This document shows, in pieces, positions 1-22,131 of a DNA stretch of 22,131 bases. Below the pieces are notes generated by a model. It saw nothing but the letters and a program-made list of their open reading frames with translations, was not told where the DNA came from and made no database searches. Positions within the stretch are counted from its first letter, which is position 1; the number at the start of each line of letters is the position of its first letter. This DNA is from Promethearchaeia archaeon. GTDB lineage: Archaea; Asgardarchaeota; Lokiarchaeia; Sigyniarchaeales; SOKP01. The DNA is taken from positions 1 to 22,131 of the forward strand of contig JAHQWJ010000117.1 of NCBI GenBank assembly GCA_029856125.1, in the 5' to 3' direction. A program made the translations under genes and the position numbers.

Positions 1-955
1 AGTTCGAGTAAATCATAAATTTGTTTGCAGAGCCTAAACTGTAAATTTCGTACTTAGTTCCCTTCTTTGTCTCACAGAACATTTGAATCATAGGAAATAG
101 ATATATTTGTGTAGTGATTTGAGCTTCTTTATCTTTTGAATAGGTTTTATGGTCACTGCTGGCGGAACTTATCGTTTTCTTAATGTTCTTATTCCAATAC
201 CCTAATGATGCTTCGCTCTTCGATTCAAGTTCTTTAAAATCGTTAAACCGGATACCTTCGACTTCTTCAATCATTTGATGAAGATCCCGTTCGATTTCTT
301 TTTCATATTTAGTTTGTGCGCTGCTGTGTAGCACTGGAATTCCTGTAACAACAGTTTTAAAAGGAACTGGTAGAGATTGGTATTTATATAAGTTTTTATA
401 TCCTCCGCAATCTTTACATTGTTCCTTACTTGTACCAATACCAAAGCAAACACCACACGAATAGGAAAATGGTTTTTCTTCCTTGATTTGCTCTTCACCA
501 GTTAAAACTTGCAACTTTTCTTCGATCTTTCCTGTGCCCTTACATGTCCTACACTTATTTTCAACGTAACCCTTCCCTTTGCAATTTTTACATGGAATAG
601 TTTGGAGCGTTTCGTAGGTTGGTACTATTTCATTTCCCTTCCAGTCGCTTTTATTGACTTTTCCTTTACCCTTAAACGAATAAAATGTTTCCCTAGCTAC
701 TTTTGGTGGTAGAACGGTATTTTCATCGGTATTTTTAGTTACTTCCCCCACAGTTTTTTTAATCGCAAAATAAATCGCAGCTTCCTTTTGTGTGTCTTTA
801 ACGTATTCTGCTGCACTTATAGCGTCTAATGAGAAAATAGCCCCCTTAGTGCCGAACTGTTTTTCCATCTGTTTTTTATTGCTTCTTACAGCACGCTGCT
901 TCCATTTTTCAAAAATTTCGTCTAAGTTTGGTGATTTAATCCTTATTTCTGGCAT
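1..955 (-). CDS. DnaJ-type zinc-finger (4x CxxCxGxG-type) protein without a J-domain, SSUH2-like; truncated by the left window edge
   Basis: Not in the ORF track. Manual translation from the ATG at 955 is open to position 2 (318 codons): MPEIRIKSPNLDEIFEKW...CKNCKGKG...CRTCKGTG...CGVCFGIG...CKDCGGYK...QIYLFPMIQMFCETKKGTKYEIYSLGSANKFMIYSN. No HPD motif in the visible part. Confidence 0.85.
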   Translation of the reverse strand, partial: MPEIRIKSPNLDEIFEKWKQRAVRSNKKQMEKQFGTKGAIFSLDAISAAEYVKDTQKEAAIYFAIKKTVGEVTKNTDENTVLPPKVARETFYSFKGKGKVNKSDWKGNEIVPTYETLQTIPCKNCKGKGYVENKCRTCKGTGKIEEKLQVLTGEEQIKEEKPFSYSCGVCFGIGTSKEQCKDCGGYKNLYKYQSLPVPFKTVVTGIPVLHSSAQTKYEKEIERDLHQMIEEVEGIRFNDFKELESKSEASLGYWNKNIKKTISSASSDHKTYSKDKEAQITTQIYLFPMIQMFCETKKGTKYEIYSLGSANKFMIYSN

Positions 956-4104: not shown

Positions 4105-5064
4105 ATGATTTATACAATCTTTCTTTATCAGAGTCACACGGGATTATTGATATACGATAAAAGTTTTCAAGACACAGATGCTAAAAATACAGAAATGTTC
4201 AGTTCTTTTATTTCAGCTATGAAAACATTCGTTTCAGAAATCGTAATTAATGACTCTCTGGATCGATCGAATGAGTTAACAAACATAGAATTGAGCGATT
4301 ACATCGTTATAATCACATCAATACCCAAAATCCAAATAGATATGGTTTTCGTTGCTGATAAAGAGGATACAAAAGCAATCAACAAATTAATTCCAAAATT
4401 AATTAAATTCTTAAATAAATACGAGCAATTATTTCTTAGTTGGGATGGGGATAGAGACGAATTTGGCATATTAGATCACCCATTAACCGAAATAGTATTA
4501 GCAAATGTAAGAACGGTTCGAAAATCGTTACTCAAACAACCAGATCAGATACTGAGGTCCATTTGGGCTAATAGGAAACTGTTATCAAAAGAAATAATTG
4601 AAAATCTGATTCAAGAACGGGATCTTTTGATATACAAAATTGAGAATACTGTAATTCTCCCAAGAAAAGCAGCTATGGCAAAATCGGTTATAGACCTATC
4701 TGAAAAACTCAAAGATGAGATTACTTATCTAAAATACCAAAATGAACTAAAAAGATTGAATAAAGAAATCAAAGATGCGAAGTTTAAGTTGAATTATTAT
4801 CTTGAGAAGATAAAAGTATCATTAAATGAAGCAATTGAAAACTTAGGTAATAATCCTATCCATTCTGGAGATTTTAAAAACGCTTATCTCAATCTCTACT
4901 CTTTTAGTACTAAGTTAAAACTAATTAATGAAAACGGTTGGAAAATATACCGTGATATTGCTAGTCAGCTGATTGATAAAGAAGCTTTAAATGAACACAA
5001 ATTATCTGAAATCATACAAAAGTTATTAAAAATGAGTTCAAATGTAGAAGATTATTTAGGTTGA
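4105..5064 (+). CDS. Longin-like N-terminal domain protein with a helical/coiled-coil C-terminus
   Basis: The N-terminus MIYTIFLYQSHTGLLIYDKSF..MFSSFISAMKTFVSEI..IELSDYIVII..MVFVAD..helix follows the beta-beta-alpha-beta-beta-beta-alpha longin pattern common in Asgard proteins. The C-terminal half is helical and K/E/L-rich. Confidence 0.65.
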   Translation: MIYTIFLYQSHTGLLIYDKSFQDTDAKNTEMFSSFISAMKTFVSEIVINDSLDRSNELTNIELSDYIVIITSIPKIQIDMVFVADKEDTKAINKLIPKLIKFLNKYEQLFLSWDGDRDEFGILDHPLTEIVLANVRTVRKSLLKQPDQILRSIWANRKLLSKEIIENLIQERDLLIYKIENTVILPRKAAMAKSVIDLSEKLKDEITYLKYQNELKRLNKEIKDAKFKLNYYLEKIKVSLNEAIENLGNNPIHSGDFKNAYLNLYSFSTKLKLINENGWKIYRDIASQLIDKEALNEHKLSEIIQKLLKMSSNVEDYLG

Positions 5065-5086: not shown

Positions 5087-6289
5087 TTATTTCGTGTGCA
5101 ACTCGATGATGTCATTCTCTTTTAATTCGTATTCTAATCCTACTTTTTTCTTTTCTTGTCTAGCATCTTTCCGAATTACTATTGCGTGATCGAACGATTC
5201 GTAAAAACTACGATGTATTTTTATAGCTACATCTCGTATTGTTGGTTTGTTGGGGCTGGAATCGATGAGGAGAGGTTTTTCAGCGATTATTCCTTTATTC
5301 ATTGTGTAGACTTTCATTTTTTGTAAGTAAGTTAACACAATTTTTCCAAAATCACCGGGGATTTTTCTCATTTTCGCACTCGTTCCGATAACCAAAGGAA
5401 ATATAGTTAAATAAGATTTCTCTAATTCGTTGAAAGTATTTTTAGTTAGCGCTAAGTCCCCTTTTGTCCCCAAAATAATAGCTTTTTTATACACTGCTGA
5501 GGGATTTAAAGAATCGACAACTTGATCAAGTTCGATCTTACCGAACACTTTAACGATCCCATTTCGTATACCTCCTGCATGAGTTATTTCCCTAATTCTC
5601 TCAGTTAATTCTTCAATATTGTTATTTTCTTTAGCTTCACTCGTTAAGTAAAACACTTGAATTTTATTAGAACCTGTCTTTTCAATGGTAACTGGAGGGG
5701 GTGGGACATTTATTCGTACATGAGCTTTATGTAATTCCTTTAGAAGTAAAATAATTTGCTCTTTATAATCACGCGATAAATCTACGCAAAAACATATCAA
5801 ATCGCAAGCTCTTAATTGAGAGATTATTTCTCTACCGTTTCCTATTCCAGTTGAGGCTCCTTGCATTATGCTGGGCATGTCAACGATTTGATAGCGAACT
5901 TTTTCGTGCTCATAAATACCAATTTCAGGAACTGGAGTGAATTTTCCAATTTTATCTCTAACTGCGCCTGTTAATAAATTTAGCAGAGAAGTTTTACCAA
6001 CACCTGGAGAATGATAATCACTTATTAGAATCAGTTGAATTCCTTCTTTTTTTATTGAAAAAGGACTAACTTTTTTACCAGTTGTTTTAATTCGGATTTT
6101 TTCCGCTTCTTGTTCTCTTCTAAGTTTAGCTAATCGAGATTTATTTAAAGCAACAATTTTTTCCGTAGCTTTATGTTTAGGGACTAAAGAAATAAATTCC
6201 TCTAAACGCGTTATTTTATCATCAATAGATGAGGCATCCAGATATTTCTGATACGCCGCAGACGCTTCTGATCCTATATTTGAACTCAT
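5087..6289 (-). CDS. DRG/Rbg-family (OBG class) GTPase with a TGS domain and degenerate G motifs
   Basis: N-terminal HTH with PKHKATEK..LKSRLAKL-like signature (LNKSRLAKL), P-loop PGVGKTS, QIVDMPS, GxGxGR (GIGNGRE), S5D2L-type insert, G4 TKGD, C-terminal TGS (TIRDVAIKIH...KVGLEYELKENDIIELH). Confidence 0.88.
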   Translation of the reverse strand: MSSNIGSEASAAYQKYLDASSIDDKITRLEEFISLVPKHKATEKIVALNKSRLAKLRREQEAEKIRIKTTGKKVSPFSIKKEGIQLILISDYHSPGVGKTSLLNLLTGAVRDKIGKFTPVPEIGIYEHEKVRYQIVDMPSIMQGASTGIGNGREIISQLRACDLICFCVDLSRDYKEQIILLLKELHKAHVRINVPPPPVTIEKTGSNKIQVFYLTSEAKENNNIEELTERIREITHAGGIRNGIVKVFGKIELDQVVDSLNPSAVYKKAIILGTKGDLALTKNTFNELEKSYLTIFPLVIGTSAKMRKIPGDFGKIVLTYLQKMKVYTMNKGIIAEKPLLIDSSPNKPTIRDVAIKIHRSFYESFDHAIVIRKDARQEKKKVGLEYELKENDIIELHTK

Positions 6290-6313: not shown

Positions 6314-6769
6314 TTAGAATATGGAGCGAAACCTATCTTCCGTTTTTAATTTCAAGTCTCCTATAATATCGTCGACTCTTCCTTCAAATTTCTTAAAGAA
6401 CTTCTGTTTTTTCGTAAAAATATCATTCAGAGAATATCTATTAAGAAAAAGCGAGTTTACTTCTTTTAAATGCTTTTTAACTACTTCTGATTCTGTTTCT
6501 TTCTCAGTTATAGCAAAAGATATTAATGGTTGCTGATTGGTTTCATCGTTTGGTAAAGCAACTAAATCGCAATAACAAACTAGTTTGAATGAGGCTAAAG
6601 AAATTACATTTATATTGTCTCCAAAAACCTCAGAGGTGAAACTTTCGAGTGCAGAGAGGAATCCGGCTCTTAATTCTGGATCTAATCCTACTCCCGTATC
6701 GGAATCGTAGTATTTTTTGTTTAATATGTTCCTTACACCTAAATTTATACCAAGCTCCAGAATAGCCAT
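6314..6769 (-). CDS. Stand-alone longin-like domain protein (151 aa)
   Basis: LDPELRAGFLSALESFTSEVF helix followed by three strands (INVISL, FKLVCY, LISFAIT) and the helices VVKKHLKEVNSLFLNRY / FKKFEGRVDDII, which is longin topology. It ends 24 nt upstream of the DRG gene. Confidence 0.65.
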   Translation of the reverse strand: MAILELGINLGVRNILNKKYYDSDTGVGLDPELRAGFLSALESFTSEVFGDNINVISLASFKLVCYCDLVALPNDETNQQPLISFAITEKETESEVVKKHLKEVNSLFLNRYSLNDIFTKKQKFFKKFEGRVDDIIGDLKLKTEDRFRSIF

Positions 6770-6919: not shown

Positions 6920-7777
6920 TTATTCACTAATTTGGCGTTTATAGGCATTATACGTGTTTTGTAGTAAAAAACTAACAGTCATAGGTCCCACTCCTCCTGG
7001 ATTTGGAGTTATCCATGAACAAGTACCTAAAACTTCCTCGAAATTTACATCTCCTCGAGTCTTTCCATTTACTCTACTTGTGCCTACATCAATAATTACA
7101 ACGCCTTCCTTAATTTTATCTTTGGTAATGAAATCAGGTTGACCAATAGCTACTACTAAAATATCCGCTTTTTTTATATGGTTTTCTAAGTCTGATGTCG
7201 AAGTGTGGCATACTGTTACCGTTGCATTCCTCTTTAAAAACATGAATATTAAAGGTTTTCCCACTAAATTTGATCGGTTAATAATAACAACATGCTTTCC
7301 CTTTAATTCTACGTTATAATATTCAAGAAGCGTAATTATACCTTTAGGAGTAGCGGGTACGATTTCCTCGTTGTAATCGAATAATTTTCCTTTATTGATT
7401 GGGTGTAGACCATCCACGTCTTTAAGTGGATCGATTTTTTCAATGAATTCAAGAGTAAAGGGTTTAAACTTCACAGGTAAAGGTAATTGTAAGATAATCC
7501 CATGAACTGTCGTGTCATTGTTTAACTCACTGATTTTTGTAAATAGTTCTGCTTTTGTACATTCTCTGTTTAACTTAACTAAAGTTGAATCGATCCCGAT
7601 TTCAGCACAAGTCTTTCTTTTAATAGTAATATACAATTTTGATGCGGGATCGTCTCCTACTAATATTGCTGCTAATTTTGGTTTAATACCCGTTCTTTGA
7701 TAATCCAAATTAATTTTGTTTTTTAATTCTGAATTCAGTCTTTCTGCTAATTCTTTTCCGTTTAATACTTTTCCCAT
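6920..7777 (-). CDS. folD: Bifunctional methylenetetrahydrofolate dehydrogenase/cyclohydrolase
   Basis: LAAILVGDDPASKLY, HGIILQLPLP, KDVDGLHPIN, PATPKG, RSNLVGKP, NATVTVCH, IDVG, ITPNPGGVGPMTV. Confidence 0.97.
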   Translation of the reverse strand: MGKVLNGKELAERLNSELKNKINLDYQRTGIKPKLAAILVGDDPASKLYITIKRKTCAEIGIDSTLVKLNRECTKAELFTKISELNNDTTVHGIILQLPLPVKFKPFTLEFIEKIDPLKDVDGLHPINKGKLFDYNEEIVPATPKGIITLLEYYNVELKGKHVVIINRSNLVGKPLIFMFLKRNATVTVCHTSTSDLENHIKKADILVVAIGQPDFITKDKIKEGVVIIDVGTSRVNGKTRGDVNFEEVLGTCSWITPNPGGVGPMTVSFLLQNTYNAYKRQISE

Positions 7778-7891: not shown

Positions 7892-9001
7892 TTATATTCT
7901 TCTCCTTCGAATGAAGAAATAGATTATTCCAATAATTACTGCAATAATTGAAGGAATTATTATTACAAGTAAGAAGTTTAATTCAACCACAAATATATCT
8001 TCATTTAACTCTTCTAACGAATCAAAGGTATCTAAGAGTTTAAATGCGTAAAAGGATGCACTGACTGATGATCCTCTTTGATCATTTCCTTCAGCCCAAT
8101 CACCAAAACCACCATCAAGAAAGTTTTGGTGATTTAAAACCCAATTTACTGTAGTAACTCTATTCAATTCACTCTCATCTATTAGCTCAATACCTTTAAC
8201 ACAATAATAAGTACTACTCAACAGAGTATTATCTGCGAGGAAATCGGGTAAATACCCACCGAAATTTGCAGTGTTATCAGGATCATCGATGTAAAAGGAT
8301 TTAAAATAATCTAAAGTCTTAGTTTTGTTGACTAGATCATTAACATCTCCTAGTGCATCGACAAGATAAACGGCAAAATAAGTAGTGACTATTGTGGAAG
8401 TTAAAGATTGATTTCCTCCATAACCACCATCAGTATTATTACATGACAGAACCCAGGTTTTATGGCCTGCCTGGTTTACAACTGCTTCATCTATTATGGC
8501 ATAAATATTATATACAACGAAAGTTGAAATCATATTTGCTGTTGTTGATGTATTTGTGGTGCCAAAACCGCCCCCAACTTGATTAGTTTCATTTAAATAC
8601 TGATAAATATTATTGTGTAGAGTTGAATCTAAAGATGTTCCTAAAGACTCCATTCTGTTAAGAGCGTCTAGATAATATAATAACTTGTATAAATCAATAT
8701 TTCCATCATTAAACATAGTTTGTATTTGATCTGTCAGAAATTCTTTGAATTCCGGGATATCTACACTTTTAGTTGCCTCAAATAAAACTTCCACAGTATA
8801 TGCATTGTAATAATCTATAATTTCTATAGCATATGCTGTATCTTGATCAGCTATACCAAAAGTACCATCAGCATTCTGAGTATCGTAAAGAAAACCAATT
8901 AAGTGGTTCTGCCGGGTTTTCGCTAATGCTACTGGTGTAATACTACTAAGTAAAGTAATAATGAGTATTAGTCCTAGTGATAAATTCCGTTTGTTTTTCA
9001 T
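7892..9001 (-). CDS. Secreted, C-terminally membrane-anchored protein with prenyltransferase/squalene-cyclase (PFTB) repeats (alpha/alpha barrel)
   Basis: Signal peptide MKNKRNLSLGLILIITLLSSITPVALA (ATG 9001 preferred over TTG 9010). Repeats QNADGTFG, NQVGGGFG, NNTDGGYG, NFGGY, QNFLDGGFG. C-terminal TM helix plus RRRRI tail. Confidence 0.8.
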   Translation of the reverse strand: MKNKRNLSLGLILIITLLSSITPVALAKTRQNHLIGFLYDTQNADGTFGIADQDTAYAIEIIDYYNAYTVEVLFEATKSVDIPEFKEFLTDQIQTMFNDGNIDLYKLLYYLDALNRMESLGTSLDSTLHNNIYQYLNETNQVGGGFGTTNTSTTANMISTFVVYNIYAIIDEAVVNQAGHKTWVLSCNNTDGGYGGNQSLTSTIVTTYFAVYLVDALGDVNDLVNKTKTLDYFKSFYIDDPDNTANFGGYLPDFLADNTLLSSTYYCVKGIELIDESELNRVTTVNWVLNHQNFLDGGFGDWAEGNDQRGSSVSASFYAFKLLDTFDSLEELNEDIFVVELNFLLVIIIPSIIAVIIGIIYFFIRRRRI

Positions 9002-9136
9002 TAAATACAAACCCCAATCTGGTTTTAACTAAATTTAATTTTTTAAATTAATTAAAATTAACGATATTTTGAGTTTATAGTTGGATTATCATACAAATTA
9101 CGATAAAATTAAAAATTTGAAAGCAAAATAGTATTG

Positions 9137-10663
9137 CTAAAATATTTCACTTATGTTTTTGTACAAAGCAGCGCTGTTAGTTTTAAATTCTTCATAGGTA
9201 ACGAATAAACTTTGAAACGAGGGAAGTGATCCAAGAATACTAGCACCATTGAAGATCGCAAATTGAAGATTTTCGGGTACAAAAAACCTTACAACCTCAT
9301 CAGAATCCTCATAAAATCCAGAAAATTCCAATGCAGGAGGAGATTGTTTTATTATTTCATTCGGTACCTCTGGTAATGTTTTCGATTGAAAGCTCCCCCC
9401 ACAATAAGGACAAAAAATAGATGCTGCATCTTCTATCTTTTTCTTACAATTTGGACAGTAAATATTACCTTTATCCAACTTAGGTTTCTTAGCTAATGTA
9501 GTGCTGCCAATTGAAAGTTCTGGCAGGATAATTCTTCCGTTACAAGAAGGACAATATTCTTTACCATCAGTTAGATCTACTAAAACCCCACAATGAGGGC
9601 ATGTATCTTCTTTCTTTGCACTTCTTTCTTTTAATTTCATTTTTTGCCTTTCGTTTCTCGAGGTTTTTATTTGTTTAGGTTTTGGTATTTTGCCAAGTTG
9701 AGGGATAGATTGAACTAGTTCTGAGCGTAATCGTTCTTCGAAGCCAGAATATGATAAATTTCCACCCGAAAGCATAATGTGAGACAAAAGGTCGCTCCAG
9801 TAATACTTATCAATTGCTTGAATACTATTAATTACCGCTTGTGGAATATTTAAAATGTTATAACCTAACAAATTTGGTTTGAATAACACTTCGGGAGCTT
9901 CATGAAATAGATAGTTAGGAATATTAATATTTGATCCATCTGGCATAGTGAAGCTAAAGTTATCCTCTAAATTGGGTGGATTTTCAGGATCTAAGGCAAA
10001 AAAACAGTTTTTTTCTTTTATTACTTGTATAATCTCATCTACCGCACTCGACTCAATATTGATTCCCTCTCGCATCAGTAAATTCTTAAGATGCTGATTA
10101 ACATCTGTTCCTGCTAATGTTAATTTTTGGACAGCTTGATCTACAATCTCCCCACTTATAATTGGGCATATCCACGATGTACCATCGCCACTCTCTATTA
10201 CAATTCCAGTTGTTAATCCTACACTAAATAAAGATAATATAGGTGTTGGAATCATTATCAGACTTTTTACTCTATGCGTTTCATACAAAACGCGAGCAAT
10301 ATATTCTTTAGTTTCTTGTTGTAAAAACGGGGGTTCAGTATATAATACTGGATAATTAGAAATATTTTCAATTCGTAGAAGTGTATAGAAGATATAATTC
10401 AAAATTTCATAGTAATCATTCCAATCTATAATCGCACCCCTATCTATTGGGTGTTTAATTTTCAGAACACCTCTCATCTTGGAAGCATCATTTCCTACAT
10501 ATATGTTACGGGCGCTAACATCAACCATAACTGCTTTATATTTTTCAGTACCGGTGATTGTTGGGAATACAAATCTTGGGCTTGGTTCTCCAGCGAATCC
10601 TATTTTTGTATACGCTGAACCAATGTCTACTATAATTGGTGTTCCGGGGAGAGGTATTGCCAT
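9137..10663 (-). CDS. Actin-related protein (Asgard actin family) with a double zinc-ribbon insertion
   Basis: Phosphate-1 IVDIGSAYTKIGFAGE..PRFVFP, PVLYTEPP, phosphate-2 ESGDG, IKEKNCF, MPDG, PEVLFKP, adenosine motif LSGG, C-terminal GASILGSLPSFQ. Four CxxC motifs are inserted before the last strand. Confidence 0.93.
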   Translation of the reverse strand: MAIPLPGTPIIVDIGSAYTKIGFAGEPSPRFVFPTITGTEKYKAVMVDVSARNIYVGNDASKMRGVLKIKHPIDRGAIIDWNDYYEILNYIFYTLLRIENISNYPVLYTEPPFLQQETKEYIARVLYETHRVKSLIMIPTPILSLFSVGLTTGIVIESGDGTSWICPIISGEIVDQAVQKLTLAGTDVNQHLKNLLMREGINIESSAVDEIIQVIKEKNCFFALDPENPPNLEDNFSFTMPDGSNINIPNYLFHEAPEVLFKPNLLGYNILNIPQAVINSIQAIDKYYWSDLLSHIMLSGGNLSYSGFEERLRSELVQSIPQLGKIPKPKQIKTSRNERQKMKLKERSAKKEDTCPHCGVLVDLTDGKEYCPSCNGRIILPELSIGSTTLAKKPKLDKGNIYCPNCKKKIEDAASIFCPYCGGSFQSKTLPEVPNEIIKQSPPALEFSGFYEDSDEVVRFFVPENLQFAIFNGASILGSLPSFQSLFVTYEEFKTNSAALYKNISEIF

Positions 10664-10896: not shown

Positions 10897-11319
10897 TTAA
10901 TCAATTTTGAAGGTTTTTTCGAGTTTCTTTTCGATTTCTTGTAATTCAACTAAGAGGTTTTTATATGTTTTAAGCAAATAGATACCCCATTTGTTCAACT
11001 TTACCCAACCTCCCCCTCCAATACCTCCCTTTTTGGTTTCTACAGGCGATTTCCCAGTTCTCTCTTTTATCTTGTGTAAGATATTCCATGCATATTTGTA
11101 GGAATAGCCGCATTCTTTCGCTGCTTGAGTTAAAGACTTGGGTTCGTTATCGTTTGTCATATAAATACTTTCAAGAAGATTTGCCCATCCAGAGCCTAAA
11201 ATATTTTCACGTTGATTATCTTGAAATTCTAACCAAAATTTAATTCCAAATCCAACCTTCTTTTTCAAATTTTCAATATTAGGCTCTTCGTTCAAGTTTT
11301 TGCTAGAATGCTTTTCCAT
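10897..11319 (-). CDS. ModE-type winged-helix transcriptional regulator (DNA-binding domain only)
   Basis: SLTQAAKECGYSYKYAWNIL...VETKKGGIGGGGWVKLNKWG matches the ModE N-terminal HTH and the GGxxGGG wing. No TOBE/Mop domain. Confidence 0.85.
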   Translation of the reverse strand: MEKHSSKNLNEEPNIENLKKKVGFGIKFWLEFQDNQRENILGSGWANLLESIYMTNDNEPKSLTQAAKECGYSYKYAWNILHKIKERTGKSPVETKKGGIGGGGWVKLNKWGIYLLKTYKNLLVELQEIEKKLEKTFKID

Positions 11320-21559: not shown

Positions 21560-22131
21560 TTGATAGGAACTCATACTCAAGGAAAAAACATACTATTTAC
21601 ATTCAAAACCGTTATAGTTGGTCCTCCGAGTGTTGGTAAAACTTGTCTTTTTAATCGTTTTTGTTTTAATTCCTTTAATTTTGATACATCTCTTACAATT
21701 GGGGTAAATTTTCACTCAATAGAACTAAAAATTCGAAATATAGATGAAACGGACAATCCTAAAGAAATACATAATGTTTTAAGCATTTTTGATTTAGGCG
21801 GTCAAGAACGTTTCAAAGCACTACTTCCAAAATTTCTTGGTGGAGCAAATGGAGTTTTGTTAGTTTTTGATCTGACTAATAGTAGCTCTTTTGATCAACT
21901 AGATTTTTGGTATGATAAATTACTTAAGCACACAGATTGTTTAAACATTCCTAAATATTTAATAGGAAGTAAAAGCGATTTATTGGAAACTGTGCCAGAA
22001 AAATACCATGTTCCTGAAGTTAATATAGATAGATTTGTTAAAGAAAAGCAATTTGACGGTTTTTTCAGGACCTCAGCGCTACAGAATCACAATGTTTTGA
22101 ATGTGTTTAAAGAACTAAATAATTTGATGCT
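21560..22131 (+). CDS. Rab-like small GTPase (Ras superfamily); truncated by the right window edge
   Basis: Not in the ORF track. The frame opens after TAA 21542-21544 with a probable TTG start at 21560. G1 GPPSVGKT, G2 TIGVNF, G3 FDLGGQERF, LVFDLT, G4 GSKSD, G5 TSA. Confidence 0.92.
   Translation, partial: MIGTHTQGKNILFTFKTVIVGPPSVGKTCLFNRFCFNSFNFDTSLTIGVNFHSIELKIRNIDETDNPKEIHNVLSIFDLGGQERFKALLPKFLGGANGVLLVFDLTNSSSFDQLDFWYDKLLKHTDCLNIPKYLIGSKSDLLETVPEKYHVPEVNIDRFVKEKQFDGFFRTSALQNHNVLNVFKELNNLM

What the first reader, a model, noticed from the sequence alone, without database searches (positions are those of the whole stretch)
9300..9700. Actin-related protein with a ~130-aa basic double zinc-ribbon inserted at the Arp2/Arp3 insert loop
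Seen: between ..ERLRSELVQSIP (actin ~312-322, RMQKEITALAP) and VVRFFVPEN (actin KIKIIAPPE) there is a K/R-rich segment, then CPHC-x12-CPSC, a linker, CPNC-x11-CPYC and a Pro/acidic linker. The actin C-terminus resumes in frame, so this is an internal domain insertion rather than a terminal fusion. Established: this subdomain-3 loop (alphaK/beta15) is where Arp2 and Arp3 carry short inserts, conventional actins have no zinc fingers, and such C4 ribbons often bind ubiquitin, nucleic acid or partner proteins. Inference: an actin-fold adaptor coupling the Asgard cytoskeleton to another system (nucleic acid, ubiquitin or membrane complex). This is the strongest candidate for novel biology in the window.
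Basis: partly seen in the sequence, partly recalled or inferred. Interest (0 to 1): 0.85.

Follow-up and report, generated by a model that had tools for sequence, protein, structure and literature searches.

The report
Zinc-ribbon actin relative, likely filament cap
This is a real, conserved actin-like gene of Loki-type Asgard archaea with small zinc-binding modules spliced into the surface where the next actin subunit would dock; it keeps only the opposite docking surface, so it most likely sits on and blocks the growing end of the archaeal actin filament, a role that is untested but can be tested in cultured strains.

Summary
Observation confirmed. ORF 9137-10663 (-) is a 508-aa actin-fold protein with a 132-aa in-frame insert (two C4 ribbons) in the actin 322-326 loop. 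Contigs from three studies bridge it. Orthologues occur in 143 of 154 genomes of the order and were not found outside it; they include L. ossiferum UYP44711.1 (one ribbon) and P. syntrophicum QEE17409 (two). The core keeps the nucleotide pocket but has lost Q137 and mostly H161. It keeps the filament contacts an incoming subunit supplies (0.71) and has lost those that accept the next subunit (0.28; p=0.009). A second Loki ARP (UYP44126.1 type) leans the opposite way (interaction p=0.018). Best reading (0.4, inferred): a poorly hydrolysing barbed-end cap of Lokiactin whose ribbons tether it to an unknown partner. No binding was shown. The scan found this family before in other genomes; I saw the mirror-image paralogue in none of the notes shown. 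No paper describing the architecture was found, but key reviews were not held.

The parts
9137..10663 (-). Gene for the 508-aa zinc-ribbon actin-related protein (P0001)
   Evidence: model pLDDT 81.6, actin fold
9296..9691 (-). 132-aa insert (residues 325-456) in the subdomain-3 loop between actin M325 and K326
   Evidence: bridged by contigs of three studies
9614..9691 (-). Linker 1 (325-350): flexible, basic in this copy only; keeps G324-x-x-P327 at its base and one hydrophobic position (342)
   Evidence: pLDDT <50 at 333-348; dN/dS 0.26; charge varies
9506..9613 (-). Ribbon 1 with flanks (351-386): C355, C358, C371, C374 and a following Q/E-I-x-I motif; present in every orthologue aligned
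   Evidence: Cys 122/122; dN/dS 0.085, near the core's 0.063
9401..9457 (-). Ribbon 2 (403-421): C403, C406, C418, C421; absent in family f4 and in the L. ossiferum genus
   Evidence: dN/dS 0.195; Pfam Zn_ribbon_3
9323..9334 (-). Conserved A-x-E-F motif (444-447) near the end of the insert
   Evidence: E446 115/122, F447 111/122; dN/dS 0.10 for 443-456
10508..10543 (-). D-loop (actin 39-50), kept: K39, Y40, M44 in 25/25 diverse orthologues
10466..10477 (-). Actin 61-64 (M-R-G-V), kept: pointed-face contact
9935..9943 (-). Actin P243-D244-G245, invariant (pointed face, but also kept in the paralogue)
10244..10246 (-). T140 in place of catalytic Q137 (S/T/A in all 25 diverse orthologues)
10172..10174 (-). 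W164 in place of catalytic H161 (His in 4 of 25)
10139..10162 (-). W-loop (actin 165-172), degenerate: no aromatic at 169 in 25/25
9797..9811 (-). Actin 286-290, degenerate: D288 and R290 each kept in 1 of 25
7892..9010 (-). Downstream neighbour: alpha/alpha-toroid (prenyltransferase-like) protein with an N-terminal signal-like stretch, a C-terminal membrane helix and a 5-residue basic tail; adjacent in all four families; functional link unproven
10897..11319 (-). Upstream neighbour: ModE-like winged-helix protein, syntenic in families f1 and f3 only; functional link unproven

Best explanation
The protein is a Lokiarchaeia-specific actin-related protein that acts as a terminal (barbed-end) subunit of Lokiactin filaments. 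SHOWN: actin fold; nucleotide-pocket residues kept; Q137 lost in all and H161 in most orthologues; pointed-face contact residues kept, barbed-face ones degenerate; a 97-210-aa insert with one or two ribbons in the barbed-face 322-326 loop; ribbon 1 and the A-x-E-F motif under purifying selection close to the core's. INFERRED: it binds nucleotide but hydrolyses it poorly; it docks its D-loop, R62 and D244 on the barbed face of a Lokiactin subunit; no further subunit can add, because the W-loop, D288, R290 and E270 are gone and the insert leaves from that face; the ribbons on flexible linkers bind an unidentified protein partner, possibly at the membrane, and so cap and tether filament ends. Zinc binding itself is inferred from the C4 motif.
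For: Contacts taken from the F-actin cryo-EM paper (bioRxiv 10.1101/309534) and split by the subunit that supplies them: incoming side 0.71 vs accepting side 0.28 carrying an actin or Lokiactin residue, p=0.009; same pattern in families f1, f3 and f4 (0.70/0.34, 0.73/0.18, 0.73/0.25); all-position background 0.52. Control: the second Loki ARP gives 0.55/0.77, interaction p=0.018, so the asymmetry is not a generic ARP trait. K291E/P322K at this same barbed-face site impairs actin polymerisation (bioRxiv 10.1101/715383). The one insert-less copy also lost the D-loop tip and P243 and has a long branch. The L. ossiferum orthologue is UYP44711.1; the paper assayed it by RT-qPCR and reports Lokiactin severalfold higher than the other homologues (PMC9834061), which fits a sub-stoichiometric end factor. 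27 of 56 ribbon-like ORFs in the genome have a membrane-helix-like stretch, against 700 of 3260 ORFs overall.
Against: The case rests on sequence alone. With my first literature set scored by BLOSUM the asymmetry was not significant (p=0.20; interaction p=0.13), the paralogue's own asymmetry is not significant (p=0.25), several scorings were tried, and each side has only 11 positions. K39, P243 and D244 are also invariant in the paralogue, so they may be structural. T202, E205 and E195 on the incoming side are poorly kept and the D-loop tip is shortened in family f3. Arp2 carries an insert in this loop and still accepts actin on its barbed face (own knowledge), so the insert alone need not block. 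The kept face could bind a partner other than Lokiactin. No partner for the ribbons was identified.
Confidence: 0.4

Rival explanations
1. Closed ARP-ARP heterodimer: the kept pointed face binds the kept barbed face of the second Loki ARP (UYP44126.1 type), giving a non-polymerising two-ARP scaffold in the manner of actin-Arp4 or Arp7-Arp9, with the ribbons recruiting other subunits.
For: The two faces are complementary; both proteins lack Q137 and H161; they fall on one side of the tree against Lokiactin and eukaryotic actin (97/94).
Against: Family f4 keeps the pointed face equally well (0.73), yet the second ARP was not found in its four genomes (63-88% complete). The genes are not linked. 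Both faces stay Lokiactin-like rather than drifting together. The tree grouping may be long-branch attraction.
Confidence: 0.2
2. One reading: a monomeric actin-fold adaptor whose basic ribbons bind nucleic acid or ubiquitin and couple the cytoskeleton to those systems.
For: C4 ribbons and loss of hydrolysis recall nuclear ARPs; a ModE-like DNA-binding gene lies upstream in two families; linker 1 is basic in this genus.
Against: Insert charge ranges from +10 to -29 and is acidic in both cultured strains; 0 of 122 carry NZF or RanBP2 motifs; the linkers are the fastest-evolving part; it does not explain the one-sided filament face.
Confidence: 0.1
3. A self-polymerising or co-polymerising ARP: it forms its own filament, or enters Lokiactin filaments, through re-shaped contacts, with the insert hanging off the side.
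For: Full-length D-loop in f1 and f4, Y/F-containing plug and several family-wide substitutions such as R290 to W in 15 of 25; the insert leaves through flexible linkers.
Against: The barbed face varies within the family (modal frequency 0.52 vs 0.69 for the pointed face), which a self-contact surface should not; the catalytic residues for turnover are lost.
Confidence: 0.15
4. Partner of the downstream membrane-anchored alpha/alpha-toroid protein: a cytoplasmic anchor for a surface protein, with filament binding secondary.
For: The two genes are adjacent in all four families and have nearly the same range within the order (143 of 154 genomes each).
Against: Its cytoplasmic tail is about five residues; gaps of 75-170 bp leave room for separate transcription; three genomes of genus g13 have the ARP without it, one has both unlinked, and weaker homologues occur in other Asgard classes without the ARP; housekeeping folD shares the synteny.
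Confidence: 0.1

Closest known systems
Ca. Lokiarchaeum ossiferum ARP UYP44711.1 (NEF87_000996) and Promethearchaeum syntrophicum QEE17409
   Same: Orthologues: same clade (100), same insert site, ribbon 1, same gene neighbours. UYP44711.1 is one of the three non-Lokiactin ARPs placed in a tree and assayed by RT-qPCR in PMC9834061.
   Different: UYP44711.1 has one ribbon and an acidic insert; the paper's main text has no mention of zinc and gives no function. Databases call these 'hypothetical' or 'zinc ribbon domain-containing protein'.
Lokiactin (own copy on contig C63; solved relative HC1 actin, PDB 9wc4)
   Same: Actin fold, nucleotide pocket, pointed-face contacts; best PDB hit E 2.2e-71.
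   Different: 38% identity; Q137 and H161 lost; barbed face degenerate; 132-aa insert; restricted to one order; joint clade rejected (AU p=0.021).
Eukaryotic Arp2 (and Arp3)
   Same: Insert in the same subdomain-3 loop (Arp2 +11 residues).
   Different: Insert ten times longer and unrelated; not a clade with Arp2 (p=0.018); Arp2/3 offer their barbed faces to actin (own knowledge), the opposite polarity.
Dynactin Arp11 (Arp10) and capping protein CapZ
   Same: Functional analogy only: an actin-fold subunit that ends a filament because one docking face is missing (own knowledge).
   Different: Arp11 caps the pointed end and lacks part of subdomain 2; here subdomain 2 is kept and the barbed face is lost. 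CapZ caps barbed ends but is not an actin fold. Orthology not tested.
Nuclear ARPs Arp4, Arp5, Arp8
   Same: Non-polymerising, poorly hydrolysing actin folds with large inserts used as scaffolds (own knowledge).
   Different: Their inserts are not C4 ribbons at this loop and they do not keep an actin-like D-loop (own knowledge; not tested here).

Membership tests
Actin family / Asgard ARPs (Pfam PF00022) | Actin profile above cut-off and actin fold | tested here: met
   235.8 bits vs cut-off 27; Foldseek to PDB actins, probability 1.00, TM by target 0.80-0.85
Actin family / Asgard ARPs (Pfam PF00022) | Nucleotide-pocket residues D11, G13, K18, G156, G158, K213, E214, G301, G302 | tested here: met
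   24-25 of 25 diverse orthologues at each; D154 is E in 23
Lokiactin | Falls within the Lokiactin clade | tested here: not met
   Own clade, support 100; AU rejects union with Lokiactin, p=0.021; the genome's Lokiactin is on C63
Lokiactin | Catalytic Q137 and H161 | tested here: not met
   Q137 in 0 of 25, H161 in 4 of 25
Lokiactin | Both longitudinal filament faces intact | tested here: not met
   incoming 0.71, accepting 0.28
Lokiactin | Forms double-stranded filaments | not testable with these tools
   needs protein
Arp2/Arp3 | Insert in the subdomain-3 loop after actin 322-325 | tested here: met
   position matches Arp2; Arp3 sequence not available, not tested
Arp2/Arp3 | Orthology | tested here: not met
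   AU p=0.018 against a clade with Arp2; Arp3 not in the tree
Arp2/Arp3 | Barbed face kept to template actin | tested here: not met
   aromatic 169 in 0 of 25; D288 and R290 each 1 of 25
C4 zinc ribbon (Pfam PF13248, PF12773) | Two CxxC knuckles 10-13 residues apart, profile above cut-off | tested here: met
   34.4 bits vs 27 and 30.1 vs 27.3; Cys invariant
C4 zinc ribbon (Pfam PF13248, PF12773) | Binds zinc | not testable with these tools
   inferred from motif only
NZF ubiquitin-binding finger | CxxC-T-F/Y-x-N motif | tested here: not met
   0 of 122; motif from own knowledge
RanBP2-type RNA-binding finger | W-x-C-x2,4-C-x3-N | tested here: not met
   0 of 122; motif from own knowledge
WH2 / beta-thymosin actin-binding motif | Amphipathic helix plus LKKT/V matching the Pfam profiles | tested here: inconclusive
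   An LKKT-like word occurs in family f3 inserts only, not in this protein; no WH2 or thymosin hit, but filters drop weak matches on short peptides
Filament-end capping ARP (Arp11-like mode) | One docking face kept, the other lost | tested here: met
   opposite polarity to Arp11
Filament-end capping ARP (Arp11-like mode) | Binds a filament end and stops growth | not testable with these tools
   needs elongation assays or cryo-EM

The most novel reading that the evidence does not exclude
Lokiarchaeia control their actin with a pair of dedicated actin-fold end caps that arose by duplication: this zinc-ribbon ARP caps and tethers barbed ends, and the UYP44126.1-type ARP binds or nucleates at pointed ends, an archaeal solution independent of CapZ, Arp11 and Arp2/3, and an actin-fold barbed-end cap of a kind I do not know from eukaryotes.
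Probability: 0.22. Interest if true: 0.85.

Novelty: new variant of a known kind. Interest (0 to 1): 0.62.

Why it matters
Lokiarchaea build dynamic Lokiactin protrusions and crawl (PMC9834061, PMC13716822), yet I found no function reported for their three extra actin homologues. This gives one of them a defined architecture and a directional, cheap-to-test role, with named proteins in two cultured strains. If right, it shows that an actin paralogue can become a barbed-end cap by keeping one face and decorating the other, and that splitting the two faces of actin between paralogues happened in archaea independently of the eukaryotic Arps.

Tried and rejected
Mis-assembly or chimera: rejected. 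ESM Atlas feature search of the insert: no usable hit; the shape search returned only the family's own automatically named cluster and actins. WH2/thymosin reading of the LKKT-like word in family f3: no Pfam support, absent from this protein. Insert-less orthologues outside the order: the best outside hits checked are Lokiactins (67-75% to own Lokiactin). The insert-less copy L049 is a singleton among 161 genomes. Expression: the one RNA run laid has contigs only over the downstream gene, which shows nothing about the ARP. Promoter/terminator scan: at chance level and not suited to archaea. BLOSUM scoring of the literature contact set was not significant. Literature: nine completed searches found no description of the insert; a 2024 J Bacteriol review on archaeal actins was not held, and no paper on the Arp2/Arp3 insert was retrieved. 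Searches failed on input slips.

Full report
Observation. The finding lies in ORF 9137-10663 on the minus strand, 508 aa, uninterrupted. Pfam Actin scores 235.8 bits in two stretches, and Zn_ribbon_3 and DZR pass their cut-offs inside the gap. Against solved actins the match runs to residue 326 and resumes at 458. With eukaryotic actin numbering, P321 is P322 and V457 is K326, so 132 residues (325-456; window 9296-9691) are inserted. Arp2 has 11 extra residues at the same point. Single contigs of three independent studies span both junctions almost letter for letter, so this is not a mis-assembly.

Distribution. The query and its 120 best hits all have exactly four CxxC. In 400 Asgard genomes the orthologue is in 143 of 154 genomes of the window's order (128/135, 1/1, 10/14 and 4/4 by family, counted from best E-values) and was not found outside it with this query; the best outside hits I checked are Lokiactins. 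Records name the hosts mostly Promethearchaeota. The orthologue in L. ossiferum is UYP44711.1, shown by the paper's RT-qPCR primers and by exact look-up; in P. syntrophicum it is QEE17409. The window's genome has four actin homologues: this one, Lokiactin (C63), a UYP44126.1-type ARP (C18; the paper's primer matches its L. ossiferum counterpart) and a divergent one (C31).

The insert. Ribbon 1 is present in every orthologue aligned; ribbon 2 is missing in family f4 and in the L. ossiferum genus. Length runs from 97 to 210 aa and net charge from +10 to -29; the two cultured strains are acidic. Neither the NZF nor the RanBP2 motif occurs in 122 sequences. Among 13 close genomes dN/dS is 0.063 for the core, 0.085 for ribbon 1 with its flanks, 0.10 for the A-x-E-F stretch, 0.195 for ribbon 2 and 0.26-0.37 for the linkers. 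AlphaFold gives a confident core, two ribbons at pLDDT about 70 and three low-confidence linkers. The ribbons are of a small generic type common in this genome (56 similar ORFs, 27 with a membrane-helix-like stretch against 21% overall). So the selected parts are ribbon 1 and a short motif on flexible tethers, which reads as a protein-binding module rather than a basic nucleic-acid patch (inference). One genome in 161 has an extra insert-less copy, which also lost the D-loop tip and P243 and evolves fast.

The core. D11, G13, K18, G156, G158, K213, E214, G301 and G302 are kept; Q137 is S, T or A in all 25 diverse orthologues and H161 is kept in four. Q137 and H161 are the catalytic residues of F-actin (bioRxiv 10.1101/309534), so nucleotide binding with little hydrolysis is inferred. 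That paper names the contacts between subunits: R39-D286, K61-E167, R62-D288, D244-R290, M44 into the Y143 pocket, P38/I64 on Y169, E195-K113 and R39-E270. Split by the subunit that supplies them, the family carries an actin or Lokiactin residue at 0.71 of incoming-side and 0.28 of accepting-side positions (p=0.009), in each of three families separately; the all-position value is 0.52. M44, R62 and V64 are invariant, while aromatic 169, E270, D288 and R290 are essentially gone. The insert leaves from that same lost face, where K291E/P322K impairs actin polymerisation (bioRxiv 10.1101/715383). As a control, the C18-type ARP leans the other way (0.55 and 0.77): it keeps Y143, Y/F169, H173, E270, D286, D288 and R290 and has lost M44, position 61 and R62 (interaction p=0.018). 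Limits: 11 positions a side, several scorings tried, BLOSUM scoring not significant, the paralogue's own asymmetry not significant, K39, P243 and D244 shared by both ARPs, and T202, E205 and E195 poorly kept.

Phylogeny. The family is one clade (100). Trees that join it to Arp2 or to Lokiactin are rejected (AU p=0.018 and 0.021). It lies on one side with the C18-type ARP (97/94), which may be a duplication or long-branch attraction. Arp3, Arp10/11 and nuclear ARPs were not in the tree, and the tree is unrooted.

Neighbours. A gene for an alpha/alpha-toroid protein with a signal-like start, a C-terminal membrane helix and a five-residue basic tail follows the ARP in all four families; a ModE-like gene precedes it in two; folD follows in three. 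The toroid gene has nearly the same range but is missing in three g13 genomes that have the ARP, unlinked in one, and has weaker homologues in other classes. I treat the link as unproven.

Mechanism. Most likely (0.4) the protein docks by its pointed face on the barbed end of a Lokiactin filament, cannot accept another subunit, turns over slowly, and uses its ribbons to tether that end to an unknown partner. Lokiactin being severalfold more highly transcribed than the other homologues in L. ossiferum (PMC9834061) fits an end factor but does not prove one. Rivals: a closed heterodimer with the C18-type ARP (0.2; weakened by family f4, where that ARP was not found), self- or co-polymer (0.15), nucleic-acid or ubiquitin adaptor (0.1), anchor of the neighbouring surface protein (0.1). 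No binding was demonstrated here.

Novelty. The protein is a known-to-exist Asgard ARP, placed in a published tree and assayed for transcript, and databases flag its ribbons automatically. I found no paper describing the insert or a function, with the caveat that some reviews are not held. Earlier notes of this scan report the same family and the lost catalytic residues in other genomes; these are not independent evidence. Verdict: new variant of a known kind, interest 0.62: real, order-wide, present in cultured strains, and tied to an open question by a directional, testable prediction, but with a mechanism that rests on sequence alone.

Noticed in passing
L052:4903-6024 (G000:C18; L. ossiferum counterpart L151, UYP44126.1 by primer match): Second Loki ARP keeps the barbed-face contacts and has lost M44, 61, R62, Q137 and H161: a candidate pointed-end cap or nucleator, mirror image of the zinc-ribbon ARP. 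Not found in family f4.
   Followed up: partly
L049:4876-6030 (G196): Insert-less, fast-evolving duplicate of the zinc-ribbon ARP, with a shortened D-loop and P243 to H; single case in 161 genomes.
   Followed up: yes
L042:7875-8729 and the matching ORF in L040, versus window 6920-7777: In family f4 the folD gene two places downstream of the ARP is replaced at the same position by F420-dependent methylene-H4MPT dehydrogenase (mtd), its methanopterin counterpart.
   Followed up: partly
L031, L032, L033, L036 inserts; P0134: Family f3 inserts carry a conserved RKEKxL(I/L)KKT word followed by an acidic helix, which recalls WH2/thymosin; no Pfam support.
   Followed up: partly
window 7892-9010: Predicted surface-exposed, membrane-anchored alpha/alpha-toroid protein; UniRef calls orthologues geranylgeranyl transferase type II beta, which the signal-like start and membrane anchor make doubtful.
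   Followed up: partly
L020-L030, L045-L048: A 140-165-aa gene similar to part of the window's IMP dehydrogenase-like ORF (probably a CBS pair) sits between the ModE-like gene and the ARP in many f1 genomes.
   Followed up: no
L177:1119-3548 (G123): An 810-aa protein with an N-terminal divergent actin domain in a neighbouring order; the C-terminal half was not examined.
   Followed up: no
L181:711-1793 (G170): Extra actin-like gene, 46% to Lokiactin, with two in-frame TAA stops reported in the match: possibly a decaying duplicate.
   Followed up: no
L054 (DATKTW010000100.1): Record titled as a Nanopelagicaceae bacterium carries this archaeal ARP at 91% identity: probably a mislabelled or mixed bin.
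   Followed up: no
window 2-955 (-): Protein with a DnaJ-like CxxCxGxG zinc-finger region in an otherwise unassigned sequence; relatives lie near the ARP in some f3 loci.
   Followed up: no
window 4105-5064, 5087-6289, 6314-6769, 21560-22129: An Obg-family GTPase flanked by two unassigned proteins whose N-terminal parts look longin-like by eye (no Pfam hit), and a small Ras-like GTPase at the window end.
   Followed up: no
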